Numbered from the stretch's first letter, positions 5,575 through 35,224 are shown. The stretch is 64,000 nt of DNA from the human T2T-CHM13v2.0 reference genome, Homo sapiens (GCF_009914755.1 NC_060940.1); one strand, 5' to 3'. Notes: generated from the letters alone by a model not told the origin. Made by a program: numbers and translations.

Positions 5575-6200
5575 AAATGATAAAAATGTTCTGAACATTC
5601 ACCTTCCGGTGTTGGCGCGCGGGGTGTGGCGCGGAGTGACCAGCCCTGCCCGGGCTCCTTTCGGCAGCAGGTGAAGCGGCTGCAGCGCGTTCTTTAACTT
5701 TCCCAGAAAGACCTACAGTTTGTAAAGCGCGTGATCTCATGCATGTCCCAGCCAGCCCAGCAGCTGGGGGTGCAGGGCCACGTCCAGTCTGGGACGCTGC
5801 AGGGGCTTCGCTCCTGGGTCCCACCTCCTGTGCATCCCAGGGCGCAGCGCGACAGTCCGAGGTCCTGCACGCCGTGGGGAGCCGCGCTGGGGGCGCCTCG
5901 GAAGGACGCGGTTCTCCAGCCCTTTCCGTGCCTAAACAGGACCGAGGCTGAGTTTCTTCGCGTGGGTGGAAACTAAAGCGGGGTTGGGGACTGGGCGCCG
6001 GCCACGGGTGCGGTTCCAGCAGCGGGAGCGGGTCCCAGGGCCGGGGGTGGGGGGGGGGGCTCAGGCACAGCGGGGGGCGAGGGCGCAGCGCCCGGAGCGC
6101 AGATCCCAGGGGCCCTCACCGCAGTAGGTGATGGAGGTGTGCAGCAGCGCCACAAAGCGTTCCACAGGGCACACATACAGCAAAGCAGCACGCTGTGAGC
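5575..6200. promoter_or_regulatory. Small CpG island
   Basis: High GC and CpG density; ETS-like CCGGAAG (minus strand) at 5603-5609; G-runs at 6043-6083. Confidence 0.75.
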
Positions 6201-8115: not shown

Positions 8116-9317
8116 ATTGGAAAAAACCAACACACACAAAAAACAAACCCACCCCTCCCCCACAAAAAAGTTACAGGACAGGCCACCTGATCTAAATGTA
8201 TGACACATCCTTCTCTCTCTACATGCCAGTTGGCAGCCTTATTTTAGAATGTCCAAACTTTGCTTAAGAAAAGACTTAAAAGATTCCTCCAAATACCCAC
8301 CCAACCAAAGTTTATCTGATTTTCAATAATAAGGTACCATCCCCAAATATGAAATTCTAAGTCTCATAATAAAACACCTTTGGCATTTAAATGTCCAACA
8401 TCTTAACCTTTTGTCTTGTTAAAGGATTATAAAAATGTTCAATACTTTAAAACCATGAAATAAACTAGGTAAAACTAAGAAGACACAAATAAAATACAAT
8501 GTCCTTGCTGAAGACTCTGAATAATGGCTTTAAGAAATACCTGAGTCTGGCAAAATACTAGACACTAGAAGTCAGTACCAAGGGCAATTAAATCGATGCT
8601 CTTTTCCCGTCAGCGGGGTAAGCTCTGAAGCCTCCAGAGAGCTGAATCAGACCCGGTGGCTTTCCTGTTTGCTCAAACATTTATTTCTGAAATGGCAGCC
8701 ATGTCACCAAATGATAATACTTAAAGCAAGTTCACAGGTTTTGTTAAAAAAAGAAAACAATCTAGTACATCCACAAATAGGAAACCAAACACACCTGAAC
8801 ACATCTATGATTAAATAAGAATATTTAATGGCATGGAAAGATACGTACACTATAGGTTCAATATGTTTTCAAAACATACCCAGCACCTATGGCTGCCTGT
8901 GCATAGTAAAAAGATAGAAAGGTATAACAGAATAATTTTTACAATTTACAAAGTTTAATGCAATTGAGAAAGGTTTCTATAAAAATTGTTAAAATAGTTC
9001 AGAGGGCAAATGCTTACTTTGCATAGCAATGCTTCGGTTACCTGGAATGCCCTCCCTTCTTTCTTCCAAGCAATTTTATGCCGCACGATGCTCAGTGGCT
9101 CTACTCTAAGTGCCAACAAGGTGAACAACCCAGTTCCTGCTCTCACGGAACTCACATTCTGGTGGAATTTATTTTTGCAACATACTTGTGACAATATCAA
9201 ATTAATAAGCCATTAGTATTGAAAAGTAATTTACACACTCTCCAGTCTGGTCCTTATTTTGATATATGTCTTCCTATGAGATGGATGCAAACTCACAGCA
9301 AAAACTATGTGTATACA

Positions 9318-9644
9318 TATAGCCACATGCTGCACGACGTTCAGTCAAGGATGGACCACATATACGGCAGTGGTTCCACAATATTGTATTTTTGCTATGC
9401 CTTTTCTATGTTTCGATACACAAATGTTTACCACTCTGTTACAACTGCCTACAGTAGTCAGTACAGTCACATGCTGCCCAGGTTTGTAGCCTAGGAGCAA
9501 TAGGCCATACCATAGAGCCCAGGTGCACAGTAGGCTGTACCATCTAGGTTTGCGTGTCACTCTATGATGTTTACACAATGACAAAATTGCCTAAATGATA
9601 CATTTCTCAGAATATATCCCCATCCTTAACTGATGTGTGACTGT
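9318..9644. mobile_element. Tigger3/MER7-type non-autonomous DNA transposon
   Basis: GGTTTGTAGCCTAGGAGCAATAGG..TAGGCTGTACCATCTAGGTTTG; ends GACTG+TA. Confidence 0.8.
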
Positions 9645-10460
9645 ATTTTACTAACCTGGCCAGGTGGAACCTTCACAAATAAAAATTCTACATAGAAAAT
9701 GCTATTTATTGTTTCTTTCAGACATTAGAGATTCCTTAACTTTAGTTTTAAATAATCTTGATATACAAACTTTTTATTTCCCTTGTTCTCCAAATATGAT
9801 AAACCAAGATTTTTAATATTAACAGGTATGACTTCTGCCTACATACATTGTCTTTGGAAAAGGCAATTATCTGCAACTGTAATTAAACATTCTTTTATTT
9901 CCCCCATTGCTAAACAATTTCACTCTTCTGGCTAAAATATAAAACCATACAATTATAAATACTTATTTGCAAGGCTTCTCTTTGAACAAATTTGCTTGTT
10001 GTATAAGACACTTGCTGATCACCTTGTAAGCTACTTAAAACATGGTATGACTTAGAGTGCCTTGTATATTTTAGTTGAATTATAGTTTTGCATTTTAAAA
10101 TATATCAATTATGCTATATAACAAATTAGTTTTAAATTATAATTGTTATGGGCTTACTATGTGTCAGTCCCCAGGCCTATCAGCATACTGGATGATCAAA
10201 TTCACAATAGCTCTTGAGGAATAGAGGAAAATGTACACCCAGAGTTGCTCAGAGAGGTCTGGGCATGTTCCAATTGTCACTTCCCAAGTGGACCCAGCCA
10301 TGACAGGATTTTCACATCCTCTTCCCTTCTTATGGAGATACAAAGCTGAGCACCTGTCTGCTGACAACTTTAGGTTTTTAGAGAGCCTCTCAGACTAGGG
10401 CCAACTGCTCATAATCCTGCCGACCCTCTTTGGCCCCTATGATGTTGTAAAGGCAATGTG

Positions 10461-11169
<709 letters not shown>

Positions 11170-11628
11170 GGCAATGTAGCTAGGCAGGTATAATGCATGA
11201 GCATAATATGGGAAGCCTATCTCACTGATACATACAATTTCCTTGGTCTCTGCACATGAGACAACAATCTCCTAAGTCTAAAGCTTTAAAAAAGTACTTA
11301 CTGTTACCTTGTCACTATACTAATGTGCAGAACATATGACATAAGATAGAAAATGTCCACGAGGGCCAGTGATCAAAGGAACCCATAGATCCCAGGTGCA
11401 TAGTAGGCTGTACCATCTAGGTTTGTGTGTCACTCAAACAAAAAACACAATAAAAACACTACACACTCTTCTCTAAAATTTTGCATGAGAGCTGAGGGTT
11501 CAAGTGAATATTTCTTTCTCTTCTGGAAGACTCCTCATGAAGGTGGTAGCATAAATAATTATCCACAAAGAATTGTCAGGCATTCATCCCTAATGAAAAC
11601 TACTAAGCCAAAACTAACAAAAAAAAAA

Positions 11629-11634
11629 TTTAAT
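11629..11634 (-). terminator. Candidate poly(A) signal ATTAAA in the BMS1P 3' UTR
   Basis: Minus-strand ATTAAA about 290 nt after the stop codon, followed by a U-rich/GU tract. Confidence 0.45.
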
Positions 11635-11917
11635 GGTATTTTTGCAGGACAAAATAATTAAACTGAGGCAGGCAGAGGAAAGTAAGAGAATCCACACAAC
11701 CACAGCTTACATCACTTTAAATCTCAACAGCCCCAAGTGATGAGAATGAACCCGGTCCAAGTAGTTCAGGCTTCTCTGTTCCTCTTGCAGGCACAGTTTG
11801 TGTAGAGACATCTCTTGAGTTCTTGCCCACTGACTTGTCATTCACAGGCATTCAAACTGTGATGTTTGAAACTGTCCACCTCTGCAGATCCAGGGACAGT
11901 CCCTCCAGTCCAAAGGC

Positions 11918-12148
11918 TCACTGAAACTGGCCCTCAGCCCCCTTCAAACTGGACTTCTGGTTTCTTCTTTCCTTCTGCCCCTGAATTTGGAAGAGCTTCT
12001 TCCTGAGGTCCTTCTGCCGCTTCAGCTTCTCCTCCTCCTCCTTCTGCTTGGCTCTGAAGTGCTCTTTATTGTGCAGGTGCCGCTGCTCCTTGGCCTTCTT
12101 CATCTTCTGACTGTGCACCATACTCAGAGCATCCAGCAGTGCGAGGAT
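11918..12148 (-). pseudogene. BMS1P: BMS1P last coding exon ILALLDALSMVHSQKMKK...KSSLKGAEGQFQ*
   Basis: CTTGTCAG acceptor; TGA at 11918-11920; matches the recalled BMS1 C-terminus. Confidence 0.95.
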
Positions 12149-12591
12149 CTGACAAGGACAAAAGCCGGTGAGTATCAGAATGCTCTCAGCCACCACACAC
12201 TCACATCCTAAGCACTAAGACTAGAGGCAACCCACGATCCAAATGAATATTAACCGCATGAAAATGCATCCTGCGCTAGGAAGTCATTGTTGGCATGGAG
12301 ACACAAGTGTGATCGCATTTTACCTTTACTACCTCTGTTCATCATTCTGTGGACACTGTGTGCAGCTAACCAAGACAGAAGGGTTCCCCAGTCATGTGCC
12401 TGTTATACCCCATCAAAAGAACAGGGCAGAGCAGGACCAGGCAAAGGAAGGGAAATTGACTCCAGCTCTTCCTCTGACTTTAGTTCCAGTGCCCTGAATA
12501 ACTGAGACTGCAGTAGAAACAGGAAGTGTGCTACTGAGAGTGTTCTTTTCCTATCTAAATGCAGCGTGCAGTACGGCATGGGCGACAGTAC

Positions 12592-13057
<466 letters not shown>

Positions 13058-13442
13058 CTGAAAAGAAAAATAAAGACTGTGACATATTCAAATTATGATC
13101 AATGTGCATTTAAAACTTCTGCATAAAATCTTCTCATTGGGTTGACTTTTCCACAAGATCAGTAACACCAGAGTCTGCTGGCCCTGAGAAATCAGGACTC
13201 AATCATCCGCCAAGTATGAACTGCCTCAGTGGACACCCAAATTCTCACTAAACAGTAAACAGAGGTACAGAGAGCTTATACTTACAACTCTCCCCCCGAA
13301 ACCCACTGTGTCTATTTCTATGGTATGGAACTATGTCTCAACAGAACAGATGAACAGATCCCAGTTTCTTTTCATGGAAATTTCAGGCCTTGTCTTTGGG
13401 CCACTAAGGTGCTTAGTTCTCAGGCTAACAAAAATAATCTAG

Positions 13443-13835
<393 letters not shown>

Positions 13836-13948
13836 TAAGAAGTTTAAGTTGGTATTCTATTTCTGATGGAAGGTTGGCTAAAAGAAGGGAGACTCAAACA
13901 ACAGATGAAGACAAAATACTCTGTACTGAATTTTCAACATAATCTTAA

Positions 13949-14189
<241 letters not shown>

Positions 14190-15424
14190 TAACTGCCTCA
14201 TAAATACTGTTAATATATTGAAAGTTTTGCCCTAAGCTTTTTATTAAAGTCAACTATATAGAAAAAGTTTCTCCTGTCTTGAAATGTATTATTAAAGACA
14301 TCATCCCTAATAATATTCCATATTCTCTGTTTAGGAACCCCAGTTGTTTTCAAATTCAAGAATTCAGAGAAATCTACTTGTTACAAAAGAGTAGAATGGA
14401 TAATGGGCACCACATCCGGAAGTGTATTTTAATAAAAATTCATGTAAGATGGTTCAAAATTTCATTAACTACTTTATATAAAAAGAAATGCCTGGGAGAC
14501 TTCTGTTTCTAGCAGAGTGGCAGAGTGATGCCTTGAACAACCCTCTTATTACAAAACTGAATACTCCACATGAAAACAAATCTTTTCAAATGCATTGTTA
14601 AGCTGTGAAGAGAAAAACAAAAGTTCTAAGAAACCAAAATCTAAATGAAAACACAAGTCCAGGCAGGCACTGAAAACTTAAAAAAAAAAAAAAACTCAAG
14701 AGGCCAATTGTTGGCAAGCATGTGGAACAGCAGGAACTCTTTAAGCTGCTGCTGGTGGTGGAGGCCAAGCCACTGTGCTCCCAGAACACGACACAGAACC
14801 CTCCACACTGAAGCAGAGCACAGGTGCCCTGGAGTCTCCACCCCACCCAGGGAACCCCAGCAGAAGTGCGTGTGCCCCTGCATACCTGCAAGTCCCATAT
14901 CCAGACCTAGTGTTCAGGGCCGTGGGATAACAGCCAAAAATAGGAAATCACTTTACTCATCAATGGAAAAATGGTGACACAGTCATATAATGGAACTCAA
15001 CAATGACAATAAATCAGTATCTGCCATAGACAAGAACACAGATGTATTCTGTAATACTGAACCAAAGAAGCCAGGTTAAATAGAATATGCTGTATTTTAT
15101 AGAAGTCAAAACCAGGTAGAACAAATCTACATCAGGAACTGGGAAAGTAGCTATTTTGTGGGTTGGGGCAGCAGTGCCTGGGAGAGGCCACAGGTCAAGG
15201 CTACTGCTTGGTCCAGGGCGTGGCAGCCTGGTGTGCTATAGTTCATCTAGATGCACACTTATGATTTGGGCACTCTTCTGTATGGACATTAACATTTCAA
15301 TAAAAAGCTTATTAAAACATTAAAGCTTTCAGAAAAATCCACATTGCTTCAGTAGAAATTAGCACATTAACATTTAAAAAAATACATGTATACGGTGGGG
15401 GAAAAAATAGTTCAAAAGAGTACC

Positions 15425-19285
<3,861 letters not shown>

Positions 19286-19501
19286 GAAAAGTTTGTCTTC
19301 AATCCAGAAAGAACCACTATTACCCTTTTTTGGTGTTCCATTCCAAAATATCCCACAAATATACAATTGTTCAATCAAATTTAACGTTAGACTTTATACT
19401 CGAATATTCAAAGTACATAAGAAATTATAGAAAAGTGTCTGTGTGACTCCCTGTCTGTAGAGCACAGCCTTCATCTCCACTAACACACACACGACCAGTA
19501 C

Positions 19502-19677
19502 CTTATACAGAGAGTCCTTGTTTGCCTTTAGTCTGACACCATGGGTGAGCCTGAGTTGGCCCGTGGTCCACGTTCTTGACCAGGTGTCCTTCTCACCCAC
19601 TGGTTTCAACAAAGATGTTACTGGGTTATAGAAGGCTGGGATGGAAACAGGATACCAAGTTCGCGTGAAGACAATAT
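19502..19677 (-). pseudogene. BMS1P: BMS1P exon DIVFTRTWYPVSIPAFYNPVTSLLKP...KANKDSLYK with mutated acceptor
   Basis: Acceptor reads TTTTCGG instead of TTTTCAG; AAG|GTACT donor; 176 nt. Confidence 0.93.
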
Positions 19678-20020
19678 CCGAAAAGAGGTAATTTACTTCA
19701 ACATTTTCAAAGGAAGATTCATATCCATACTGCAAAGAAACAAAAGAACAAAACCTTCACTCCAAACTTCTCTACCTGGCTGCAAAGTATTTGAAGGGAA
19801 AGCTCGCTAAGGAAACTATTCTCATAGATCACAGAACTGTTACTGGGTGTGGCCAGGGGACTGCAGACACAAAGCGAATGGGCACACCGCATAAGACTGG
19901 GAGATCTAAGGCTGGAGCTGCTCAACTCTCTGGAGACCTGACTCCAGCCTCTCGTCACACTGGCTAGAAGTCAAGCATGAATGGTAATACCCTGCCCTGA
20001 ACACTACTTAAGACACTCAC

Positions 20021-20168
20021 CGCTCATCAGCAGCTTATCCTCAAAGCTGGCCTGGAAAGCTCCTTCTGGAGCTCAGAGTGCTTTCTTGATCTGCCCCCTT
20101 ATCCCACTGACAGTTTGAATCACAGCACCTTCAAATTTGGCCACTTCCAAGGCAGAATTAAATATTCC
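20021..20168 (-). pseudogene. BMS1P: BMS1P exon [48 protein letters not shown] with premature stop
   Basis: CTGTAG acceptor, GCG|GTGAGT donor, 148 nt; in-frame TGA at 20073-20075. Confidence 0.94.
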
Positions 20169-20186
20169 CTACAGGTATAGCAAGAT

Positions 20187-20187
<1 letters not shown>

Positions 20188-20217
<30 letters not shown>
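20188..20217. repeat. (CA)n microsatellite near the BMS1P acceptor; others at 17030-17052 (CA) and 57760-57793 (GA)
   Basis: Read directly from the sequence. Confidence 0.9.
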
Positions 20218-20220
<3 letters not shown>

Positions 20221-21093
20221 ATATACTTTATGCTTTACTTCTTACTTCAAACATACATCCTTGATTAAAGAACAAAAACAACTCACTGAAGGGTGATAAA
20301 ATAATCAAAATGTATTTGCCCCTGAAAGTGGAATTACTACCTCAAAAAGAATACAACTCTTTCATTTTCCCCAAAATAATCATGTGAGTTCATGGGCATG
20401 CTCATCACTGCTGTCTGTGTGGAAGAGAAGATCGAAGAGGGATTTACTGGACTGAACTGGCCTAGGAAGCCTTTGCTGGCATCTCTCAGACTGGACTGCA
20501 GCCCAGATCCTTTTACTTAGATGCATGCACTTAGAACATGAAAACAGTAAGATAAACGCCGGTGGTATTATTACTTTATATTCCAATAACATTTTAAGAC
20601 TTCCTAACTCTGTGTTTTCAATAGAAACATCCCCACTAATGAAATTGTCAATATATGTGCTCAAACCACCCTCCCCAAATACTGAAAAACAGTACATCCG
20701 TTTCTCTGTACCCTTGCCAAGTTGTCTGCAAATGCTTTGTCAATTTTTCTACTGAGTTAGACAAACTTGTGATTTTTTTCCCTTTCTTAACACAAATTTA
20801 AAAAGTAGGAAACAAAACCTAGTGCATAAAATGACATATTTTCAATATGAGTTATGTGGCAGTCTCACATGGAAGTCAGGAGTAACAGCCTCAATTCCTA
20901 AATAGCTGTTTACCTCTGCTTTTTTGAGCATATTTAAGTAATACAGAATATAAAGGAGCAAACAAAATATGAAGTTTATAAAAGATTTCAAACACTTTTC
21001 TAAAAATATGAGGCCCATATTTTAGATGTATTTCATTCCTTTTCTCAAATAATATGGACATTTATAAATATGAGAATATATAGATATACAGAC

Positions 21094-21216
21094 CTTAATA
21101 AATGAAGTGTTCTTGAAAATTTTATATGGAAAACCAGTTGGCTTTAATTTCTTCACAATTTTTATGGATTTATCCAGATCAAGGACAACTCCTGTGGCAG
21201 CTATGCGAAAATCAGG
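21094..21216 (-). pseudogene. BMS1P: BMS1P exon PDFRIAATGVVLDLDKSIKIVKKLKPTGFPYKIFKNTSFIK
   Basis: GTTAG acceptor, AAG|GTCTG donor, 123 nt. Confidence 0.94.
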
Positions 21217-21391
21217 CTAACAGGAACCCCAAAATTTGAAAATAGGAAAAATATTAGCAAGAGAAAAACTTCAATTCTATTTGACACAATAAATTACCAA
21301 AGTGAATTTTACTTACAATTAGCTAAGAAAAACAAGAGAGACCATCTGAACTTGCAACCCAGTGGTTTGACAAAAGCAATCCAAAACTTTA

Positions 21392-21755
<364 letters not shown>

Positions 21756-22305
21756 TCAGAGGAATGTAATTTTACTATAATGATTTATTTGGAACGAAAT
21801 GGAAAAGAAAAATACAGTTGCAATGTTTAGGAAACTAAAATTTGGACCTCCAGGGAAGATTCCATCTGCTCATTATTCTGCTTCCTTCTCTGTTAAATGG
21901 GACCAGTAAACCCTGCCCTGCCTGACTGGTCAAATGAAAATGGAGTGAACAGACTGCTACCCCAGCACAGCTGCAGGGAGTCTTGTATCTGGGTGGTCTC
22001 TGATGGCTCCTCACAACCTCATATAGTGCTTAGCACATGGTGAGCACTGCTTAAGTATCTCCTTAGATAAATAAATGCAAAAGATGCACAAAAATAGGAA
22101 ATGTACCATCATAATTCTTCCACCTCCCCTCCTCTAATCCCACACCCTACTGAAAAGGATGTACAAAGATTAAAAGCAAAGGGAAATTTACTTTATATTA
22201 ATAAAAATGTGTAATTTTCAACTTAAAGTCTGATGTACATAATAACCCACATTCAGGATATATTTCTCAAACCAATCTGTAAAAGAAATCATCCAAGATA
22301 GTTAC

Positions 22306-22364
22306 CATTATGCCACTGACAGACTGTATTGCCAAGAAACCAGTTCCCTGTGGAGTGACAGGGT
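22306..22364 (-). pseudogene. BMS1P: BMS1P exon PVTPQGTGFLAIQSVSGIM
   Basis: Polypyrimidine tract plus TTTAAG acceptor, ATG|GTAAC donor, 59 nt. Confidence 0.92.
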
Positions 22365-22610
22365 CTTAAAGGAAAAGGAAAAAAAGAAATATAGCAAACC
22401 ACAAATTTTAGATTCTAGTTTAACATACTGGATATGGACATTTAGATTTGGATATAGATTTACATATATACTCCAAACCACCTCCCTGCTCCCAGAAAAG
22501 AGAAAAATCTTAGGAGTGGAATTTTATGAAAGGAAAAGCAAAAAGCTAAAATAACACAGCCTGTAAGGTTTAATCTCGGCAATAGGCAAGTTATTGTAAT
22601 CATATTTTAC

Positions 22611-22791
22611 TCCAAAAGGCTGCTCCGCAATGCATGTGTTGTGGGGTATACTTTAGAAGCCTTTGTCTTCCATTATGGTCTTCGATATAATACAGCGGGA
22701 TGGTCTGAAACCTCCTCCACCCTACAGAAAATATGATTGGATCTCGGGACTTGAGGATTTTCTTATACCAGCGATGTTTCTTCAGACGCAT
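22611..22791 (-). pseudogene. BMS1P: BMS1P exon [18 protein letters not shown]...HMHCGAAFW
   Basis: CCTCAG acceptor, GGA|GTAAAA donor, 181 nt. Confidence 0.95.
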
Positions 22792-22875
22792 CTGAGGGGG
22801 ATGAGAGTGTAAGATGATTGATGGAGGGGAAATCCACAGAGCCTCAGGCACCAAATATGCAGCAAAGGGACCCAC

Positions 22876-23064
22876 CTGCACGTCTCCAACATTTCCCTCA
22901 CTGTTGCCCAAGCCACCCAGGATAATGGGGTAATGGGGGTCAAAGTTCTGCACAAATTCACAGGGAACATTTTCAATCTCAACGCGGACGTACATCCCAG
23001 GTCGAAAACACTCATAAGGAACTCTGGCTTCATCATCTTGATCTTCAAATTCTGTGCGATTCAG
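22876..23064 (-). pseudogene. BMS1P: BMS1P exon [15 protein letters not shown]...[14 protein letters not shown]
   Basis: GTACAG acceptor, CAG|GTGGG donor, 189 nt; lies within ORF 22600..23133. Confidence 0.95.
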
Positions 23065-23207
23065 CTGTACATGACGGGGGGAAAAAAACCTGTATGCTGT
23101 TATCTGTAATAAACATAGGATTAACATGAACAAATGAGCAATTTCTAAGTAAAGGAACTGTGGACAGAATTATGTAGGCTTTATCCTATTAAAAATACTA
23201 CACATTT

Positions 23208-23511
23208 GGCCGGGTACAGTGGCTCATGCCTGTAATCCCAGCACTTTGGGAGGCTGAGGCGGGCAGATCACATGAGGTCAGGAGTTTGAAACCAGCCTCG
23301 CCAACATGGTGAAACCCCATATCTACTAAAAATACCAAAATCAGCTGGGTGTGGTAGTGCGTGCCTGTAGTCCCAGCTACTCAGGAGGCAGAGGTGAGAG
23401 AATCGCTTGAACCTGGGAGACGGAGGTTGCAGTGAGTCAAGATCATGCCACTGCACTCCAGCCTGGGCAATAGAGCGAGATTCCATCTCAAAAAACAAAA
23501 AAACAAAAAAA
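23208..23511 (+). mobile_element. AluS
   Basis: Full dimer; CTACACATTT on both flanks. Confidence 0.92.
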
Positions 23512-23817
23512 ACCTACACATTTTACCTCTACAGTCTGTTCAGAATATGTCTCAACCGTTTTCTTCTCTCCTGCTACAAGGCACGGCAAATGTAGATAAC
23601 TGTGGAGCCCTGCGTGCTTGAACACTGGAAACATCCCCAGTCCACACCTTCTTTCCTTCCTCTCCAAATAATTCTTTCACACTTTTCCCTTGTCTTCAAA
23701 CACCCACCACCATCCTCACCTTCACTCAGCTGATGGCTGTTTCCTGATTCACTCCAAAACCAAAAGAACCTCTACGGTCAACCCTCTACCAGGGTTTCCT
23801 CCCATATCCAGCCTTAT

Positions 23818-25270
23818 CAGAGCTCTGACCTGGCCCATAGAGGAGCTATGTGTGGCTATTTAAATTAAAATTAATTACAATTACATAATATTTAAAATGC
23901 AGTTCCTCAATCACACTAGTCACACTGGAAGCGGCCCATATCAACCTGCGGCCAGTGTTACAATATTGGGAAGCACAGACGTGCATCTCCATGATCACAG
24001 AAAGTTTTATGGGCAGCTCAGGCACAGATGATTTGTCCATGCCTCTACTCAGGGCCACACATCACTTGCTCACTAGACACCATCCACTCTTCCTGGACTT
24101 TATTCCAACAGCTCTTCCCTCTGTTCTCTCTCTTTTCTCAAAACCTTTTGATTCCACTTCTTCCACCAACAACTGCTTCATTTCTCTGCTTCTCTCTGCA
24201 GCAAAACCCCACAAAAGTTTTCTGCAGTTGCAGCCTCCAGTTCCTCTGCTCCCATTCTCCTACATCCATGAAAATTGGTGTTTGCCAAGATTGCTGAAGG
24301 CCTCCACGCTGAAGGACTCCTCCAGTGGTCAACTCTGCTTTCACCGTAGTTAACACAGCAGGGGATCTGAACGGTGCTTCGCCTCTGTGTACAACTGGAC
24401 TCCTGTGTGCCTGCATGCTCACACTGCTTCTCCCTCTCCCTCCTAGGCACTGCTCAGGCCTCACGGCCGCAATCGCCCCATCTCGCCCATGCCAGTCTTG
24501 CTCCTCCCAGTCACTCTGCACTCACTCCCCGGCCACCTCACAGCGTTAAGTGGCATCTACATGCTGAGGGCTGTATATCTAAGTCCCTGGCCAGACCTGT
24601 CTCTCCAGACTTGACACTCCGCTTGTCTGCATGATACCCAGCCGAACCAAACATCATCTTCCCAAAACTACATCTGCAGAGGGTTTCCTATCTAACCTGC
24701 AACAACCCATCCTTCCAGGAACTTCCAGTCGCCATCCTCATTTCCTCTCACACACCCCACATTCAGTCCACCAGGAAATCCTGCTGAGCCAGCTTCCAAA
24801 TAAACTCTATCCAGGTTTGACTCTTTGTCTCATCTCCACTGTCAGCCCTCTGGTTTGTGCCACCAGACTGATCTCTACCAGACTGATCTCTTGGCAGAGT
24901 GATCTGATTACCCGAATGTCTCTCTTCTGCTCAAAACCCTCCAAGGACTCCCATTTCAGAGTGAAACATTCAGTCTTTTCCAATGGCTCACAAGGCTCTG
25001 GGTAGTTTTAAATTGTAAATGGTGTGAAGCAAAAACTTCAGTTAGCCTAGTCATGCCTTTCAAAGGTCAACACAGACTAGCAACCACTAAGCTAATGCTT
25101 AATCAGGAAACAGTACTTTGACTAGATGAAGATCTAGGATGAAACTCCATTTCACAAATCATATACCTAATCTGTTCCAGCTTACACAGGCACTCCTGGC
25201 CTCGCTAACAAGACACAACTCAGATGCTTACCATCAACTGTACACATGTTTCTGTGTCTGTCTCCTTCAG
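23818..25270. mobile_element. MER3-like DNA element (~23818-24015) followed by old L2 fragments
   Basis: AGTTCCTCAATCACACTAGTCACA motif; C/T-rich L2-like text (CTGCTCAAAACCCTCCAA). Confidence 0.55.
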
Positions 25271-25807
25271 AGTGAGATCACTGCCTCCAACAACCTGCTC
25301 AGCACCCCCAGGCAGGAGGGCCACACCATCTCCCTTATCTCCGCATCTGACCTTATACTCCACATGTCCTTCTGAACTCTGACCAGGATGAGTTTTCAGA
25401 GCACTTCCCCTGGGAGCTCTGGTGTGTCCATAAGCCACACAGGCCACTGATCACCTGCCACTCAAATCAGGGAGCAGCGATCAGAATAGGCAGCATTGGC
25501 TTGCACTGAAATGAACACACTGTCTCAGATCACTACATTGTAAAAGTCTCAAAAGTAGAGACCATGTTTCAGTCATTTCGGTTTCCTAATTCTTGTTACA
25601 AAATAGATATGGATCTTTTTCTGGTGACCTTCTGACTGTAGAAACAATGAGCTCACTGCATGAATAAACACACTCACATACATCTACCCAGGAGTCCAAA
25701 TGAAAGGCACAGAAGCAGGATAGGAAGCAGGGACCCAAAGAAAGTCAGGGATTCCTGCACTATGTGACAGTCTTGACAAGGGGCTGAGAGGAACTGAGGT
25801 TTCTCAC

Positions 25808-25979
25808 CTGTGCTTGTTTCTGCATTTCTCCTTTAAGATCATCAAAATATGTGCTTTCTCCTTCATCATATTCCTCATCAAACATCTCCTTCAATTTTCT
25901 CTTCTTATCCAAATGCTTTTTCTTGGCACTTTCTTCTTTGTCGGGGTCAATTTCTTCCTTGTTTCTCTATATCTTCATT
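25808..25979 (-). pseudogene. BMS1P: BMS1P exon NEDIEK/KEEIDPDKEESAKKKHLDKKRKLKEMFDEEYDEGESTYFDDLKGEMQKQAQ, frameshifted
   Basis: TTTAAG acceptor, CAG|GTGAGA donor. The exon is 172 nt between phase-0 junctions, consistent with a net 5-nt loss after NEDIEK. Confidence 0.92.
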
Positions 25980-26625
25980 CTTAAATTTCCAGAAGAAAAA
26001 ATTTTGTGTATGTTTATGAAGGTCTTTTCTTTAAACATTAGATTTTTTAAAGTTCTATTTAAACAAAAATCTTAGCAAAAATCTGTTACCATTATCAATA
26101 AAACGAAACAAACCACAACACAACCTTTTTTCTCTGAATAACATGGTACTGCTACAGGAAATTGTTACATCTGCATTACAATTAGCTGCTATTCCTTAAG
26201 CTGGCTGGGAACACAAACTAGAATAAAAATAACAGACATGTCCCTCACCCAGATGTTCCCAGAACCTGTTCTAAAGAAATATTAGGGAGAACAGGGACTT
26301 CATTCATTTAAATGACACTTAAAATTAAAAAGAGGAGAATGATGGCAATGGTTGAATGTAAGTCTGAGAAGCTAAGACTTCTGTGAGTGAAAAATCACAG
26401 TGGACTTGGCAAATGACTATGGCAAGAAACAGTAGTAACTGTCATCCAAAACTTAACAAGTAAACAAGAAAGCTTCTCTTTGGTCCCCACATCCCCACCC
26501 TTTAGGAAGGAATCTATCCATCCAGTCTGCAATCTTCACACATCACAAGTAAGATTTGCATTTCTCAATGTGGGCCTCTCTCAGAACACAATGACCAAGA
26601 ACAGCCAGCTACGACAAAGTCATAC

Positions 26626-26699
26626 CTGAGTATCGGGGCCCGATTTTCCCTTGTGCACATCCCCTGTTTCCAAGTCTTCAAAGTCACCATAGAGCTCCT
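26626..26699 (-). pseudogene. BMS1P: BMS1P exon EELYGDFEDLETGDVHKGKSGPDTQ (first retained exon)
   Basis: TTTTCCCAG acceptor, CAG|GTATG donor, 74 nt. Confidence 0.93.
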
Positions 26700-26975
26700 C
26701 TGGGAAAAGAACACCCAAAGGCTGCTCTGTGAGCCAGGCATGCATGTGCTGCTGGCCCCACCCACAACAGGCCCACAATGCGCTCCACGTTCCAAGCCTC
26801 ATTCTCACTGTTCCCGTCACTACACACACAGGCAAAACTTTGCACTAGGGAATGCTTCGTAGAACAGTTAGTATTTCATCATCTGTTTAGGTAAACTAAA
26901 TGGACCCAATCCACATTTCTGCACTTCATGTCAAAATCCCAATCTCAATTTTTCCAGTATAGATAATGGACACTC

Positions 26976-27280
<305 letters not shown>

Positions 27281-27598
27281 AATGGACACTCTTTATGAAA
27301 GACACAGAGGTCTATCTGTGTCCCCCAAGCGAATAATTCAAAGAGTGAATGGAAAAGTCCCACGCTGATAACCAGCATATGTGAAAAGGAGTCTCAATGT
27401 AAGTTCAACACAACACAATCATGTAACACACCTAGGGGAAATTTTAGATTATATAAAACATAGCATTTAGATTAAGAGTAGAGCCCCAAACCACACCAAA
27501 CCCATGGGAAGAGCTTATTCACTCATTCATTCCTTCATTTGTTGTTGGAGCTCTGGGCTCAATTATAATTCCCACTCTTAAAAGAAATAGACAGGTAA

Positions 27599-27735
27599 GG
27601 CTGGGTGCAGTGGCTCACACCTGTAAACCCAGCACTTTGGGGGCCCGGGAGGCAGAGGTTGCAGTGAGCCATAATTGCATCACTGAACTCCAGCCTGGGT
27701 GACAGAGTGAGACCCTGTCTCAAAAAAAGGAAAAC
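27599..27735 (+). mobile_element. Internally deleted Alu (left-arm start fused to right-arm end)
   Basis: CCCAGCACTTTGGGGGC joined directly to CCGGGAGGCAGAGGTTGCAGTGAG. Confidence 0.8.
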
Positions 27736-28149
27736 AAAAGAAAGAGGCAAGTTAAAACTCATTTGGGAGAGCAATGTTTAGAAAGCTATTAAAACATTTT
27801 CACATAAGGGCCAAAGAACCAGGTAGACGTTATAAAAGATAGGAAGCTCCTATTTGTAATAAAAGCAAAAAAGGATAAAATAGGAATAAACCTCACAAGA
27901 AGTGCACTGGAACTTTATTTTTTTTAAAAAAAAGAAAAGCTTTAATATGCTACCAAAGGACAAAAGGAATAGCATCACTACCAACACTTGTAAGTGCTCT
28001 CCACACTAGGCACTGTGTTAAGTACTTTCCTTGCCTTAACCACATTCTTCAACCCAAGGAAGTAGGTGTTGTAAATATTATTTACTGAATAATGATATGT
28101 CCTCATTTGAAAAGAAAGACTCGACATCACAAATACGCCAATTCTCCCT

Positions 28150-31100
28150 TTAGCACAGTTACAACCCGAAACCACCACTAAGGATTTCTGGTCTAGAGAA
28201 GATAATACATTATACCCTCCTAAGAAATGTAACCCAAACTCTAGAAATAATAGACAGGAGATGATCAATGGAGAATTCCAAAAGGTGGACAGAAAAAGGC
28301 TGCTGAGGGACTCTAGGACTAGGGAATGCATAGTGGCCAGGTGTCTCCCTGGACCTCATCCAATAGGAAGGTGACCCAGGCCCAGAGTTTCCCAACTCCT
28401 AACGTAGCAATAGAAGGCAACCCAGGCAGACTCAGTCCCCGCAGATCAAAGGAGATCTTCCCCACAACAAGAAAACCAGCTCCACACACCAAGACAACCA
28501 CCATTCCCCACCCATCTAGCTGCAGCAGGTGGCCCAGCCTGGGGCAGCTCCCCTGTTCCCTCAGGTGGGCAACAGCAGGGACTGGTGGGAGAATCCCAGT
28601 GATACATATAAGCCAAACAGACCAAAATAACACCATGAAGGCTCTGAAATTAAATTGCCATTGGAATCTCAGCCCACAAAGTAGACCAAGACCTACAGAC
28701 TAAACCTAAACAGGAAGACTGCCTGCAAAAATAAAAAAAATTACATAGGCAGATGTTGGAACCATCTGACTCATCACTTATAACAGTCAGTATAAAAGTG
28801 CTTCAACAAGCAACTACAAATCCTACAGCAACAATCAAAGAACTGAAAACATCAGCAAAGAAACTGAAGAAGAATCAAATGGAAATTACAGAAATATGAA
28901 ATACAGTAACAGAAATTTAAAAAAAATCTAACTGGATGGGCTCTATTGAGTAAAAGTGGAGACGACAGAGGAGAGAATCAGAGAAGCTGAAACCTGATCA
29001 ACAGAATTCACCCAGCCTAAACAATAGATAGGAAATAACCTGAAAACAAATGAACAGAGCTGCACGGACCTGTGAGATGATAACAAAAGACCCCACATTT
29101 ATGTTATCTGAGTCCCACAGGAGACCAGAGCTGCGAAAGCATGCAAATAACTAATTCCTGACACTTCCCACATTTGGTGAAAGATATAAACTTACAGATT
29201 CAAGAAGCTGAGCAAACCTCAAAGTATACCAAAAGAAAGCAACACTGATTAAACTCTCAAAACTAAAAACAAAGACCAAAAATGGCAGAATGCCTGTAGG
29301 GACACGCCAACTCAAATGCCATGGAGGCCAGAAGGAAGTGGCACAACATTTTCAAGTGCTTAAAAAAAAACAACCAAACAAAAAACCAACCAAACAAAAA
29401 AACTGTTGGCTGCAAATTCTATATCCCATGAAACTACCCTTCAGAAATGAAGAGAGAAATAAAGACATTCTGAGAGGAAGAGAATATAGGAATTTGTCAC
29501 CGGTCAATTTAGAAATGCTAAAAAGTGGCTACAGAAATATGTTGTGTCATTTCCACAATACAAAAAATTAAAACAAAAAAATCAAAATAAAAAAATGGCT
29601 ACAGAAAGTTCTTATGCAGAAGGGATGAATATGGGACTATGGGAGGAGGGACAAAGGAAAGACCAGAAATGTGGATACATACGCGAGACAATCCACAGTT
29701 CTTAAAATCACATTTGACGACTGAAACAAAAACTATACCACCACCTAATACTCAAGCCAGTGATTTATACAAGTGGAAAAGGTAAAGAGACATAAATGCA
29801 AGGCAGGTTTCCACACTTTGAAGTGGTAAATACTGGTACCAGTAGACTACTATATTACAATGCACATATTGTTAACATCCAGAGCAAACACTTTAAGACT
29901 ATACAAAGAGATACACGCAACAACATTATACAGAAATAGATCAAGATGGAGGGAAAGAAAAAGGAAACAACAAAGCAAATAATAAAAACATCAGACATAA
30001 GCAATTATGTAACAATAAGCACCTTAAATGTAAATGGTCTAAATAAACCAAAAGACAGATTGATGGAGAGCCTATAATAAACACATGGTCCAACTAAATA
30101 CTCTTCATAAGAAAATTCAAACTCACTTAAGGTCCTAAGTAGGTTGAAAGTAAAAGAATGGAGAAAGATATCCTGTGAAATCGTTAATTTTTTAAGGAAG
30201 CAGGAGTGAATATATTAATATCTCATGAAGTAGACTTCAAGCAAAATAATTTACCAGAGCTGGAGAGGGTCTTGGCTGAATTTTAAGATCTAAAATTTCC
30301 TATGCTGTCTTGACATCTTTGAGCCTCACAGGGCCCCAAAGGCCTAGCCATAGGTTTTCCTATTTCTACCAGACACCCCCTACCCGGCCACCCAACAGGA
30401 AAGGCTCCCCACCTGGCTAGTTCTTTTATCAGCCAGAACAGTTGCACCTCAGCCTAAAAAGTTTCACTTCACCTGTCTGCCAGCCCATGAATTTATTCAA
30501 ACAAGCCAATTGCATGCCCCCTCGGGAACCATTGGTCATTGTGTGCTCTTGTTACTACCAAGCCTGCCTGCTTCCTCAGCCCGCAGCCCTCACTCCAATA
30601 CAGAGTGCGGTGCCCATCTGACCCTGTGTGGCATGCAGTGTCCTCCTCTGAGCTGTGGGTATATGTGACTAAAACACTGCTGTCAATCTCATCCATCCAC
30701 GCCAGGCGTCGTGTTCAGCCATCTCCTACACTTTAGGGCAGGGACCCCTCCTTCACCAATGGGGTGAAAAGGAAGTGACCCTAACAACTGCTTAATGACA
30801 AAAGGATTAACCCACCAAGAAGACATCTACTTCAACATCCTCCTCTTAGCAACTGTTAAAACTAGGCAGAGGCCGGGCACAGTGGCTCACGCCTGTAATA
30901 CCAGAACTCTGGGAGGCAAAGACAAAGGATAGCTTGAGGCCAGGAGTTCGAGCCTGGGCAACATAGCAAGGCCTCATCTCTCCAAAAAATTTTAAATTTA
31001 GCCAGGTGTGGCGGCACACACCTATAGTACCAGCTACTCAGGAGGTTAAGCCAGGGGAAGTACTTGAGCCTAGGAAGTCAAGGCTGCAGGGAGTCTTGTT

Positions 31101-31308
31101 CGTGCCACCGCACTCTAGTGTAAGTGACAGAGTGAAACTAGGCAGAAAAGGAGCAAGGATTTACAAAAGATCTGAACAGTTCAACCAGCAAAATCTGACA
31201 TCCGTATAACACCCCACTCCCCAACAGCAAAACACACACATTTTTAAAGCCAATAGAAATCTACCAAGATGAAGTACATTTGGGGCAATAAAAGAAATCA
31301 CAGCAAAT
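28150..31308 (+). mobile_element. Old L1M 5'/ORF1/endonuclease region, interrupted by an LTR and an AluJ (30871-31140), cut off at TAR1
   Basis: ACAGATTCAAGAAGCTGAGCAAACC, TTAAATGTAAATGGTCTAAAT, TTGAAAGTAAAAGAATGG. Confidence 0.72.
30273..30787 (+). mobile_element. Solo ERV LTR
   Basis: ~510 bp, TG...CA ends, U3/R-like content; splits the L1. Confidence 0.55.
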
Positions 31309-32172
31309 CTCGCTGTGCGGCCCTCGGCGCCAGCGCCGTGCGCCTCTCTGCGCCTTGTTTTCTCACCACGGGGAAGCATTTGGGGGCCTCTTGAGGGACC
31401 CCCTAGATGCTTCTACTCAGAGCCCCCAAAGCCGGGGAGCCTCCACTCCTCTGTCTGCAGCCTCCCCTGTCGGTTCTCGCTACCCAGGGTTCAGTGGCCT
31501 GGGGGCTGACGGAGGGGGTCGCCTCTGCCAAGGCCCCTTCCGGCGCCTCCCTGGCTCATCCAGCCCACCTCCCTCCCACGCTGGCTTACGCAAAGTGCTC
31601 TGGTCACCAGGAGCCCTTCCTGACCAGCCCCGGCACCTCCTTGGCCTTCGCCCCACCTGGCCTCCCCTGGAGCCCTGACCTGGGTGCAGGGCCTACTGGG
31701 TCCAGAGCCCACCCCGCCCTGAACAACCCCGAGTCTCAGCCACCCTCAGTTCTTACCCTTTCACAGCTGGGGAGTGGAGCCTGGGCCTGCGCCGGCGCCG
31801 TGGGCCTCTCCGCCGCGCCCGCGCTGTCCGCTTCTCCGCCGCTGTCCGCCTCTCCGCCGCGCCCGCGCTGTCCGCTTCTCCGCCGCGCCGGCGCTGGCGC
31901 TGTGTGCCTTTGCCAGGGCGAAGCTGCGTTCTCCTCAACACAGACCCGAAGAGCATCGTGAGCGCGGAGCTGAGTTCTACTCTGCACAGACTTCGGAGAT
32001 ACAGCGAAGGCAGAGCAGTGTTCCCTCAGCACAAACCCGGGCGGGCGGGCCGGTGGCACCGTGAGGGTGGAGCTGCGTTCTGCTCTGCACAGACCTTGGG
32101 GGCACTGCCTCGCTTTGGGACAACTCGGGGCCACATCGAGGGTGAATAAAATCCTTCCTGTTTGTAGCCCTG
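31309..32172 (+). repeat. Interstitial TAR1 (telomere-associated repeat) fragment / CpG island
   Basis: 29-bp-type motifs (GCGCCTCTCTGCGCC, GCGCCGGCGC), then 37-bp-type units (GGCGAAGCTGCGTTCTCCTCAACACAGACCC), then GCTTTGGGACAACTCGGGG..GGTGAATAAAATC. No TTAGGG array follows. Confidence 0.85.
31808..31890. repeat. GC-rich minisatellite, ~44-bp period built from CTCCGCCGC/GCTGTCCGC subunits
   Basis: CTCCGCCGCGCCCGCGCTGTCCGCTTCTCCGCCGC at 31808 and 31852. Confidence 0.85.
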
Positions 32173-32655
32173 TTTGCGGTTGGTGGCAGCGATGGACGCT
32201 GCAGCCAGCCAGAGCGTAGAAAGGCGTCGGAGTAAGTGCGCTATCCAGGCTGCACTGCGGGTGGCCTGGGACGGGTTGGGAGCCCTATCTCAGGCGTCAC
32301 TGCCTGTCCTGGGTGGCTGTTTGGGTGTGCTATCTGGGGCTGTGCTGCCTGCACCAGGGGGGGTGGTTTGGGGGCCCAAACCGGGGCTGCACTGCCTTTG
32401 GCGGGGAGCCGGTTGGGGGCACTATCCCAGACTGTATTGCTGGCAACAGTGAGGTGGGCTAAGTGTGCTATCGGGGGCTGCGCTGTGCGGCTGTGGGGGG
32501 TTGGCGGTTTCGGGTCGAGGGCGCTATGGGGTGCTGTAATGCCCATGGTGCGGGGAGGCCAGGCAGTTTGGGTATGTTGGGTGTGGTATTGGGGGGGGCT
32601 ACACTGAAGGTGGTAGAGGGCAGGGTGGGTTGGGGGCCATATCAGGGACTGCACT
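32173..32655. repeat. REP522-like subtelomeric/pericentromeric repeat
   Basis: Recurrent GGGGGCACTATC / GGGGCTGCACTG motifs. Confidence 0.65.
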
Positions 32656-33945: not shown

Positions 33946-33949
33946 GAAG

Positions 33950-35220: not shown

Positions 35221-35224
35221 CATT

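What the first reader, a model, noticed from the sequence alone, without database searches (positions are those of the whole stretch)
11620..32172. Subtelomeric TAR1 CpG island positioned as a new promoter/first exon for a decapitated BMS1 copy
Seen: the BMS1 duplicon breaks off at ~31308, inside an intronic L1, and abuts a CpG-rich TAR1 block. That block carries two good minus-strand donors, AGG|GTAAGA (intron starts 31756) and GTG|GTGAGA (31366). Both point at the intact acceptor of the first BMS1 exon (26699), and a candidate poly(A) signal survives at 11629. Known: TAR1 29/37-bp repeats are the CpG-island promoters of TERRA. As I recall, BMS1P/DUXAP-type spliced lncRNAs exist, so the transcript class may already be annotated. 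Inference: a telomere-type promoter firing in the anti-TERRA direction revived a gene fragment as a chimeric lncRNA controlled by subtelomere-like methylation.
Basis: partly seen in the sequence, partly recalled or inferred. Interest (0 to 1): 0.8.

Follow-up and report, generated by a model that had tools for sequence, protein, structure and literature searches.

The report
BMS1 pseudogene fused to TERRA-like promoter
A broken copy of a ribosome-assembly gene lies beside a worn telomere-type promoter in a much-duplicated stretch near the chromosome 16 centromere; the layout could make a hybrid non-coding RNA, but nothing here shows that it does.

Summary
The anatomy is real. A BMS1 3' copy (residues 777-1282, minus strand) ends at window 31308-31310, where homology to the chr10 parent stops. 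It abuts a CpG-rich block that aligns to the Xq and 16p TERRA promoters.

Three corrections:
1. The junction is not private. It occurs in 16 copies on chr1, 2, 9, 15, 16 and 22, and 10 of them keep the BMS1 acceptor exon.
2. Both donors lie in a 437-bp module (31353-31789) copied from the LSP1 region of 11p15.5, not in telomere-associated (TAR1) repeats. Both already exist on chr11.
3. The promoter remnant lacks the 61-bp repeats and telomere repeats. Its 29-bp units are degenerate, and it is the most CpG-poor of the family.

Donor-like sites are no commoner than chance. CpGs decay at near-bulk rate. RefSeq has no transcript here. The BMS1 frame is broken.

Interstitial TERRA-like promoters beside pseudogenes (bioRxiv 10.1101/2025.05.15.654290) and the DDX11L family are printed precedents. 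Verdict: a new member of a known kind; transcription untested.

The parts
7437..31310 (-). BMS1 duplicon: the 3' part of the gene, its introns and downstream DNA. The left limit is only the end of the parental stretch I fetched.
   Evidence: Megablast to chr10 parent: window 26744-31310 at 94.9%; window 7437-12641 at 95.5% and 12968-17739 at 93.3%.
26626..26699 (-). First retained BMS1 exon (residues 777-801) with an intact acceptor and donor.
   Evidence: Read. PDB 7mq8_SI residues 776-801. The acceptor AG is kept in 9 of 10 copies and the donor in 10 of 10.
25808..25979 (-). Second BMS1 exon. It carries a frameshift relative to the first exon.
   Evidence: Aligns to BMS1 810-863 in its own frame. 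The frame spliced in from exon 1 hits a stop after about 10 further codons. Borders aag| and |gtgaga.
22600..23064 (-). Third and fourth BMS1 exons (23064-22876, and 22791 to about 22600) with the RIBIOP_C domain. The 84-bp intron between them is included.
   Evidence: PDB residues 857-985. Pfam PF04950, E 8.2e-32. Borders.
12642..12967 (-). Alu-sized insertion inside the penultimate BMS1 coding exon.
   Evidence: 326 bp in the window against 22 bp in the parent. The flanking ORFs carry the same five residues twice, and BMS1 1174-1205 follows.
11918..12148 (-). Coding part of the last BMS1 exon, with stop codon at 11920-11918.
   Evidence: PDB residues 1206-1282. Acceptor read.
11629..11634 (-). 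ATTAAA poly(A)-signal candidate.
   Evidence: Read. Conserved in the chr10 parent. Its use as a poly(A) signal was not tested.
28900..31307 (+). Ancient interspersed repeat (L1-like by eye) in the BMS1 intron, which holds the breakpoint. An Alu lies at about 30865-31052.
   Evidence: 645 first-look candidates, 40 scored, dispersed hits at 68-73% identity. Pfam and PDB gave no L1 hit.
31311..31352 (+). Filler of 29-bp-repeat type between the BMS1 break and the chr11 module.
   Evidence: Window 31327-31355 matches Xq 29-bp units at 89.7%. Tandem repeat 31311-31354.
31353..31789 (-). 437-bp module copied from the LSP1 region of 11p15.5. It is CpG-poor (observed/expected 0.30) and carries the candidate donors.
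   Evidence: 93.4% to chr11:1960306-1960743. 26 near-full-length copies among 29 matches. CpG statistics.
31748..31759 (-). Donor 1, AGG|GTAAGA (first intron base 31756).
   Evidence: Identical in 20 of 20 derived copies; chr11 has TGG|GTGAGA. Score 8.73.
31651..31659 (-).
   Evidence: Score 8.69.
31358..31369 (-). Donor 2, GTG|GTGAGA (first intron base 31366).
   Evidence: Altered in at least 3 lineages of the family; chr11 has ATG|GTGAGG. Score 7.65.
31781..31910 (+). Degenerate 29-bp-type repeats, the core of the TERRA-type promoter.
   Evidence: 72% identity to the Xq, 16p and 1p arrays. Period 18-26. 0 canonical GCGCCTGCGC motifs against 8 in the Xq array.
31911..32172 (+). 37-bp-type repeats and the first ~77 bp of pre-tel. 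The TERRA-sense direction is +.
   Evidence: Aligns to Xq L011 up to 6306 and to 16p L014 2609-2534. ChIP-R and sub3 oligos of PMC6600276 match the + strand.
31661..32320 (.). CpG island by the 200-bp scan.
   Evidence: GC 0.66, observed/expected 0.74, 54 CpG.

Best explanation
This is one copy of an old pericentromeric segmental-duplication mosaic. With its chr16 twin it is the most eroded copy measured.

Shown:
- The last 40% of BMS1 (residues 777-1282, with introns and downstream DNA) was cut inside an intronic dispersed repeat.
- It is joined to three pieces: a 42-bp filler of 29-bp-repeat type, a 437-bp module from the LSP1 region of chr11, and a truncated TERRA-type promoter.
- That promoter remnant has degenerate 29-bp repeats, 37-bp repeats and about 77 bp of pre-tel. 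It has no 61-bp/CTCF repeats and no telomere repeats.
- The BMS1 fragment points away from the TERRA direction.
- The junction then spread to at least 16 loci.

Inferred:
- The layout could produce an RNA that starts in or near the CpG-rich repeats. It would use one of the chr11-derived donors, splice to the acceptor at 26699 and end at the parental poly(A) hexamer.
- Such an RNA would be non-coding, because the BMS1 frame is broken.
- At this copy the block is most likely methylated and silent, or at most weakly or conditionally transcribed.

The juxtaposition is therefore best read as a by-product of duplication, not as a selected promoter capture.
For: - Junction shared: 16 of 27 matches span the whole 321-nt junction probe. 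The parent matches only nt 1-161.
- 10 of 16 copies keep the acceptor exon; 6 are truncated at window 29412.
- Orientation and truncation of the promoter.
- The module comes from chr11 and both donors pre-exist there.
- Donor 2 changed in at least 3 lineages and the acceptor AG was lost in 1 of 10 copies.
- Donor-like sites are at chance level: 3 seen against 1.06 expected, P = 0.086.
- CpG loss per site-copy is 0.113 (29-bp part) and 0.086 (37-bp/pre-tel). The flanks give 0.132 (BMS1 intron) and 0.199 (minisatellite). Pooled by my own sum, that is about 0.107 against 0.156.
- This copy has 42 CpG in 391 bp; its chr16 twin has 41 in 393. The 13 other copies measured hold 63-164 CpG.
- No canonical NRF1-type motif is present.
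- Frameshift and Alu insertion in the BMS1 frame.
- The RefSeq table supplied with the finding lists only an alignment-type pseudogene model and no transcript from the block.
Against: - No expression or methylation data could be consulted, so silence is an inference.
- CpG observed/expected is still 0.95 in the TAR1 part. Its CpG loss is about two-thirds of the flank rate rather than equal to it.
- Donor 1 is invariant in 20 of 20 derived copies.
- The same module plus TAR1 sits at the LSP1P-type loci. LSP1P5 and LSP1P4 are reported as expressed lncRNAs, with RACE and CAGE support (PMC11184311 passages; 10.1101/2020.07.28.225193 passages). I could not map their first exons.
- BMS1P paralog names occur in 47 papers, mostly expression-signature and copy-number studies (search listing only).
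- The CpG counts use related copies, so the cells are not independent.
Confidence: 0.6

Rival explanations
1. The TERRA-type CpG island fires in the anti-TERRA direction and gives a spliced chimeric BMS1P lncRNA at this copy, switched by subtelomere-like methylation.
For: - Correct orientation.
- A CpG island is present.
- Donors, acceptor, downstream exon borders and the poly(A) hexamer are intact.
- The first minus-strand poly(A) hexamer comes only at 30497, whereas the + strand meets AATAAA at 32145.
- The 61-bp repeats are missing. [quoted passage not shown]
- DDX11L is a precedent (PMC2705379 passages).
Against: - The donors are not TAR1-derived.
- The 29-bp core is degenerate and this copy is the most CpG-poor of the family.
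- CpG decay is near the bulk rate.
- Reported TERRA CAGE tags lie in the 37-bp repeats in the sense direction (PMC12242772 section 25).
- RefSeq has no transcript model at the block.
Confidence: 0.2
2. The working unit is the LSP1-derived module. It is a portable first exon with its own donors, and perhaps promoter elements, shared with the LSP1P lncRNA loci. The TAR1 repeats only supply CpG-rich context. BMS1P transcripts would then be LSP1P-BMS1P chimeras.
For: - The module and both donors exist at chr11, 5.2 kb upstream of an LSP1-like coding exon on the same strand.
- It lies 10 kb upstream of a Caldesmon-family exon.
- The long copies carry 3.97 kb of chr11 sequence beginning exactly at the module edge, next to TAR1.
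- LSP1P5 is RACE-supported.
Against: - I could not see any annotation of LSP1 or of the LSP1P genes, so it is unknown whether the module is an exon.
- The module is CpG-poor, with observed/expected 0.22-0.30.
- My probes for the LSP1 N-terminal exon found nothing within 30 kb.
Confidence: 0.12
3. BMS1P RNA from this copy, if any exists, starts elsewhere: at an Alu or dispersed-repeat promoter in the intron, or as read-through from upstream duplicons. The TAR1 block would then be irrelevant.
For: - The RefSeq pseudogene model starts at 26745 and has no upstream exon.
- 6 of 16 junction copies have lost the BMS1 exons altogether, and 2 further loci kept only 42 nt of BMS1-side sequence. Block and cargo are therefore not held together.
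Against: No candidate start site was identified here. The RefSeq model appears to be built from a protein alignment and says nothing about start sites.
Confidence: 0.08

Closest known systems
Interstitial TERRA-like promoters of T2T-CHM13 (Santagostino et al., bioRxiv 10.1101/2025.05.15.654290)
   Same: - 29-bp and 37-bp repeat homology to the Xq promoter.
- No 61-bp repeat, as in 97 of their 106 loci.
- Location in 16p11.2, a band they name as enriched, and inside segmental duplications.
- Pseudogenes or ncRNA genes alongside in forward or reverse orientation (sections 7 and 8).
- The paralog bands found here (1q21, 2p11, chr9 pericentromere) match their list.
   Different: I could not check whether this locus is one of the 106, because Tables S3 and S4 are closed. 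Their gene criterion is a start within 100 bp of the promoter. Here the annotated pseudogene starts 4.5 kb away. The main text does not mention BMS1 (0 occurrences); LSP1 I did not search for.
DDX11L family (Costa et al. 2009, PMC2705379)
   Same: A rearranged fragment of a cellular gene lies about 400 bp from telomere-associated repeats. It is oriented telomere-to-centromere (anti-TERRA), spliced with GT-AG introns, and spread by duplication to many loci including an interstitial one (passages).
   Different: - DDX11L transcripts are documented; none is shown here.
- DDX11L sits beyond the 61-bp repeats at true chromosome ends (my recollection for the 61-bp detail).
- Here the 61-bp repeats and the telomere are gone, and an LSP1-derived module intervenes.
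Canonical subtelomeric 61-29-37 TERRA promoter (Nergadze 2009, as described)
   Same: A CpG island of 29-bp and 37-bp repeats in the same order and orientation, followed by the start of pre-tel.
   Different: - No 61-bp repeats and no telomeric tract.
- Pre-tel is cut after about 77 bp.
- The 29-bp units are 72% identical to the Xq array and lack the NRF1-type motif.
LSP1P-type loci (chr2:90.147 Mb and chr1:143.816 Mb examined here)
   Same: The same chr11 module, with the same boundary to TAR1 repeats.
   Different: These loci keep 3.97 kb of chr11 sequence, the full pre-tel and an interstitial TTAGGG tract, and they have no BMS1 sequence. That they are the genes named LSP1P4 or LSP1P5 is my guess; it was not checked.

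Membership tests
TERRA-type 61-29-37 CpG-island promoter (TAR1) | 29-bp tandem repeats (core promoter) | tested here: inconclusive
   Window 31781-31900 aligns to the Xq, 16p and 1p arrays at 72%. That is within the 55-100% range accepted in 10.1101/2025.05.15.654290 (section 12). But it holds 0 canonical GCGCCTGCGC motifs against 8 (Xq) and 25 (16p).
TERRA-type 61-29-37 CpG-island promoter (TAR1) | 37-bp repeats downstream of the 29-bp repeats | tested here: met
   Window 31781-32105 aligns colinearly to Xq L011 5967-6306 (76.7%, E 2.6e-67).
TERRA-type 61-29-37 CpG-island promoter (TAR1) | 61-bp repeats with CTCF sites upstream | tested here: not met
   No alignment to Xq L011 5311-5850. No CTCF-like core in 31308-32172 against 2 in the Xq promoter. 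The position is taken by the chr11 module.
TERRA-type 61-29-37 CpG-island promoter (TAR1) | Pre-tel followed by TTAGGG repeats | tested here: not met
   Only window 32096-32172 matches pre-tel. The window has no run of two or more TTAGGG or CCCTAA units.
TERRA-type 61-29-37 CpG-island promoter (TAR1) | Promoter activity and methylation control | not testable with these tools
   No RNA, CAGE or methylation data were available. The indirect CpG-decay test points to germline methylation.
Unprocessed (duplicated) BMS1 pseudogene | Homology to the parent gene that includes introns | tested here: met
   94.9% over window 26744-31310 (intron), and 93-95% over 7437-17739.
Unprocessed (duplicated) BMS1 pseudogene | Truncated or disabled coding frame | tested here: met
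   Only residues 777-1282 are present. There is a frameshift between residues 801 and 810 and an Alu-sized insertion in the exon for residues 1174-1205.
DDX11L-like gene fragment transcribed away from telomere-associated repeats | Gene fragment within about 0.5 kb of TAR repeats, oriented away from the telomere side | tested here: met
   The BMS1 side starts 473 bp from the 29-bp repeats and lies on the anti-TERRA strand.
DDX11L-like gene fragment transcribed away from telomere-associated repeats | Documented spliced transcripts | not testable with these tools
   No transcript data. RefSeq's table for the window lists none at the block.

The most novel reading that the evidence does not exclude
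The degenerate 29/37-bp TERRA-like CpG block plus the 437-bp LSP1 module may be a portable promoter-and-first-exon cassette. It would have travelled with pericentromeric duplications and fire in the anti-TERRA direction into whatever lies beyond it: LSP1-derived sequence at the loci flanked by interstitial telomere repeats, and BMS1 3' halves at the 10 loci that keep the acceptor exon. A family of chimeric lncRNAs would then be co-regulated with TERRA by DNMT3B-type methylation.
Probability: 0.15. Interest if true: 0.55.

Novelty: new member of a known kind. Interest (0 to 1): 0.3.

Why it matters
If the cassette were active, it would tie a set of pericentromeric pseudogene RNAs (BMS1P, LSP1P) to the regulation of telomere transcription. 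It would also explain why several bands named as rich in interstitial TERRA-like promoters are the bands that carry this duplicon.

As it stands, the value is mainly descriptive:
- An exact three-source anatomy (BMS1 on chr10, the LSP1 region on chr11, a subtelomeric promoter).
- A breakpoint placed to within 3 bp.
- A list of 16 paralogous junctions that any read-mapping test must distinguish.

Tried and rejected
- **First orientation guess.** I first took the 31910-32140 units for the 61-bp repeats, which would make the minus strand TERRA-sense. The alignment to the Xq and 16p ends showed the opposite. The oligos of PMC6600276 gave only partial help: ChIP-R and sub3 matched, while TF, TR, ChIP-F, PR, sub1 and sub2 did not.
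- **A truncated BMS1 protein.** Splicing donor 2 to 26699 puts an upstream ATG in the BMS1 frame, but the frame stops about 10 codons into the second exon. Rejected.
- **The module as LSP1 exon 1.** Short recalled peptide probes found nothing in chr11:1945501-1975500. Unresolved.
- **L1 identity.** Pfam gave 0 families and PDB gave no relevant hit. One translation request failed on stop codons and was not pursued.
- **A second TAR1 copy or telomere repeats in the window.** None found.
- **Literature.** BMS1P + TAR1: 0 papers. BMS1 + pseudogene + segmental duplication + pericentromeric: 0 papers. BMS1P8: 4 papers, listing only, none structural by title. Other BMS1P names: 47 papers, listing only.
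- **Sources not available.** Nergadze 2009 was not held under the id I tried. Tables S3/S4 of the Santagostino preprint, the Hsieh supplement zip and the LSP1P5 primer tables were therefore not seen and may bear on the claims.

Full report
**Observation.**
- The minus strand carries AGG|GTAAGA (first intron base 31756) and GTG|GTGAGA (31366).
- The acceptor ttcttttcccag|AGGAGC opens an exon at 26699 that closes at 26626 before gtatga.
- ATTAAA lies at 11634-11629, and the same hexamer is present in the parental gene.
- A 200-bp scan finds a CpG island at 31661-32320 (GC 0.66, observed/expected 0.74, 54 CpG).
- The minus-strand reading frames match human BMS1 (PDB 7mq8_SI, 1282 residues) at residues 776-801, 810-863, 857-985, 1174-1205 and 1206-1282, and Pfam RIBIOP_C.

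The copy therefore holds residues 777-1282 and lacks the first 776.

**The break.**
The window's assembly could be searched. A 321-nt probe across the junction (window 31150-31470) gave 27 matches:
- 16, including the window itself, span the whole probe: chr16 twice, chr2 six times, chr9 three, chr1 three, chr15 twice, chr22 once.
- 2 (chr22:11.35 Mb and chr14:8.55 Mb) cover nt 117-321.
- The BMS1 parent on chr10 covers only nt 1-161.
- The rest cover only the right-hand side.

The parent aligns to window 26744-31310 at 94.9% and then stops. Beyond that point the parent shares only Alu-sized matches with the window. On the other side, parental homology runs on past the gene's end to at least window 7437.

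The break is therefore at 31308-31310, and the duplicon is at least 24 kb long. The stretch that holds the break is an old dispersed repeat: 645 first-look candidates, 40 scored, dispersed hits at 68-73% identity. I could not confirm the L1 label, because Pfam and PDB gave nothing.

**What the "TAR1 block" is made of.**
I fetched the Xq end, whose TERRA promoter coordinates are given in bioRxiv 10.1101/2025.05.15.654290 (section 5), together with the 1p and 16p ends.
- Window 31781-32105 aligns in the + orientation to Xq positions that lie 0.8-1.1 kb before the TTAGGG tract (76.7% over 343 nt, E 2.6e-67).
- The same stretch aligns in the reverse orientation to the 16p end, where the telomere lies to the left.
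- Window 32096-32172 matches the first part of the 16p pre-tel region (83%).

My own first guess was the opposite and was wrong.

Nothing in the window matches the 61-bp part of the Xq promoter. The window has no telomere-repeat run.

The stretch 31353-31789 matches none of the three chromosome ends. It is a 437-bp copy, at 93.4%, of chr11:1960306-1960743. On chr11 that segment lies on the same strand:
- 5.2 kb upstream of a coding exon that I recognise, from memory, as LSP1;
- 10 kb upstream of a Caldesmon-family exon (E 3.2e-4, below the family cut-off).

Between the module and the BMS1 break sits a 42-bp filler of 29-bp-repeat type.

Both are already present on chr11, as TGG|GTGAGA and ATG|GTGAGG. 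They are not features of telomere-associated repeats.

**The family.**
The module occurs near full length at 26 places among 29 matches.
- Two long copies that I examined (chr2:90.147 Mb and chr1:143.816 Mb) hold 3.97 kb of chr11 sequence starting exactly at the module's edge.
- In chr2:90.147 Mb, 29/37-bp repeats, a complete pre-tel and TTAGGG repeats follow. chr1:143.816 Mb shows the same TAR1 match to the window and the same TTAGGG count.
- The chr11-to-TAR1 join is thus shared with the BMS1-bearing copies and probably came first. That order of events is my inference.

Among the 16 junction copies:
- 10 keep the region of the acceptor exon, and 6 are cut at window 29412 and continue into unrelated DNA.
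- The acceptor AG survives in 9 of 10, and the exon's own donor in 10 of 10.
- Donor 1 is identical in 20 of 20 derived copies.
- Donor 2 differs in the two chr16 copies, the two chr15 copies (GTGAAA) and the two chr2:94.7-95.0 Mb copies, which means at least three changes.

Copies differ from the window by 1.6-3.5% over 29420-31890.

**Is it promoter-like?**
- On a crude donor matrix whose frequencies I recalled, donor 1 scores 8.73 and donor 2 scores 7.65. Three true BMS1 donors score 8.1-10.8.
- Sites as good as donor 2 occur at 1.05 per kb per strand in the window. The 865-bp block has 3 against 1.06 expected (P = 0.086).
- A third site, CAG|GTGGGG at 31656, scores 8.69.
- The minus strand meets its first poly(A) hexamer only at 30497. 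The + strand meets AATAAA at 32145. This asymmetry is mild support for the minus direction.

Against promoter function:
- The 29-bp units here are degenerate. They hold 0 copies of the GCGCCTGCGC motif that Le Berre et al. relate to NRF1 binding (PMC6600276 passages), against 8 in the Xq array and 25 at 16p.
- The TAR1 part of this copy has 42 CpG in 391 bp; its chr16 twin has 41 in 393. The 13 other copies measured have 63-164 CpG in 402-970 bp.
- Across the family, a consensus CpG has been lost in 11.3% of site-copies in the 29-bp part (27 sites, 345 cells) and 8.6% in the 37-bp/pre-tel part (7 sites, 105 cells).
- The corresponding losses are 13.2% in the BMS1 intron flank (19 sites), 12.1% in the module (15 sites) and 19.9% in the minisatellite beyond 32172 (12 sites).

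That is about two-thirds of the flank rate. It is not the several-fold protection expected of an island kept unmethylated in the germ line; that expectation rests on general knowledge. The cells are not independent, because the copies are related.

**Coding potential.**
The first four exons keep AG and GT borders. Splicing donor 2 to 26699 would put an upstream ATG in the BMS1 frame, but the frame stops about ten codons into the second exon. A shift between residues 801 and 810 causes this. An Alu-sized insertion also splits the exon for residues 1174-1205. Any RNA from this copy would be non-coding.

**Comparison with what is known.**
- Santagostino et al. (preprint; abstract and sections 3, 5, 7, 8, 10 and 12 read; supplements closed) list 106 interstitial TERRA-like promoters in T2T-CHM13. 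Of these, 97 lack the 61-bp repeat, and 105 lie in segmental duplications. They are enriched in 1q21.1, 2p11.2, 9p11.2, 9q21.11 and 16p11.2.
- At 47 of those loci a pseudogene or ncRNA gene starts within 100 bp, in forward or reverse orientation. The authors speculate that loss of the 61-bp repeat allows transcription both ways.
- Several of those bands overlap the regions where the paralogs of this junction lie (the band assignment of T2T coordinates is my own).
- I could not check whether this locus is in their tables. BMS1 is not mentioned in their main text; LSP1 I did not search for.
- Hsieh et al. (PMC12242772; passages and section 25) place sense CAGE tags in the 37-bp repeats.
It is a rearranged gene fragment about 400 bp from the telomere-associated repeats, oriented telomere-to-centromere, spliced and multi-copy (PMC2705379 and PMC7374410, passages).
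- Searches for BMS1P together with TAR1 found no paper.

**Verdict.**
The structure is real, and its composition is more interesting than described: three sources and 16 shared junctions. The functional claim is untested. For this copy it is weakened by the eroded promoter, chance-level donors, near-bulk CpG decay and the absence of a RefSeq transcript.

I put about 0.15 on a family-wide promoter-and-first-exon cassette.

Noticed in passing
window 5481-6260: A second CpG-rich stretch (GC up to 0.72, observed/expected 0.65-0.72, 36 CpG in the densest 400 bp) lies downstream of the BMS1 copy. Its origin was not examined.
   Followed up: no
window 33950-35250: This stretch belongs to a much larger duplicon family than the BMS1 junction. 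It gave 128 first-look candidates; 40 were scored, all at 93-100% identity, on chr1, 2, 9, 10, 14, 15, 16, 22 and Y.
   Followed up: partly
window 35266-37000 (to about 38000): Long runs of degenerate 5-6-bp repeats of CCCTGG/CCTGC type, with telomere-variant hexamers on the C-rich strand. It is unclear whether this is a decayed telomere-like tract or an unrelated minisatellite.
   Followed up: no
window 32172-32660 and 34100-34420: A G-rich minisatellite of roughly 45-bp units starts exactly where TAR1 homology ends. It is interrupted by a T-rich insert at about 32660-33950. It does not match the Xq 61-bp repeats.
   Followed up: partly
L033 (chr5:29.03 Mb), positions 4570-5060: In the chr5 copy, the module and its 29-bp-type filler are followed by the first ~35 nt of another module copy. 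This hints at an ancestral tandem arrangement.
   Followed up: partly
L032 (chr11:1955501-1965500), positions 3533-4804: On chr11, a GC-rich tandem repeat with long open frames on both strands lies immediately upstream of the module. It occupies the place that the 29-bp repeats occupy in the copies.
   Followed up: no
G000:C16:35273443-35280643 (L015): A twin of this locus 1.4 Mb away on chr16 is 98.5% identical over 7.2 kb and shares the A-to-G change in donor 2.
   Followed up: partly
L030 and L031 (chr22:11.35 Mb, chr14:8.55 Mb): Two acrocentric or pericentromeric copies keep only 42 nt of BMS1-side sequence to the left of the junction and then continue into a different shared flank.
   Followed up: partly
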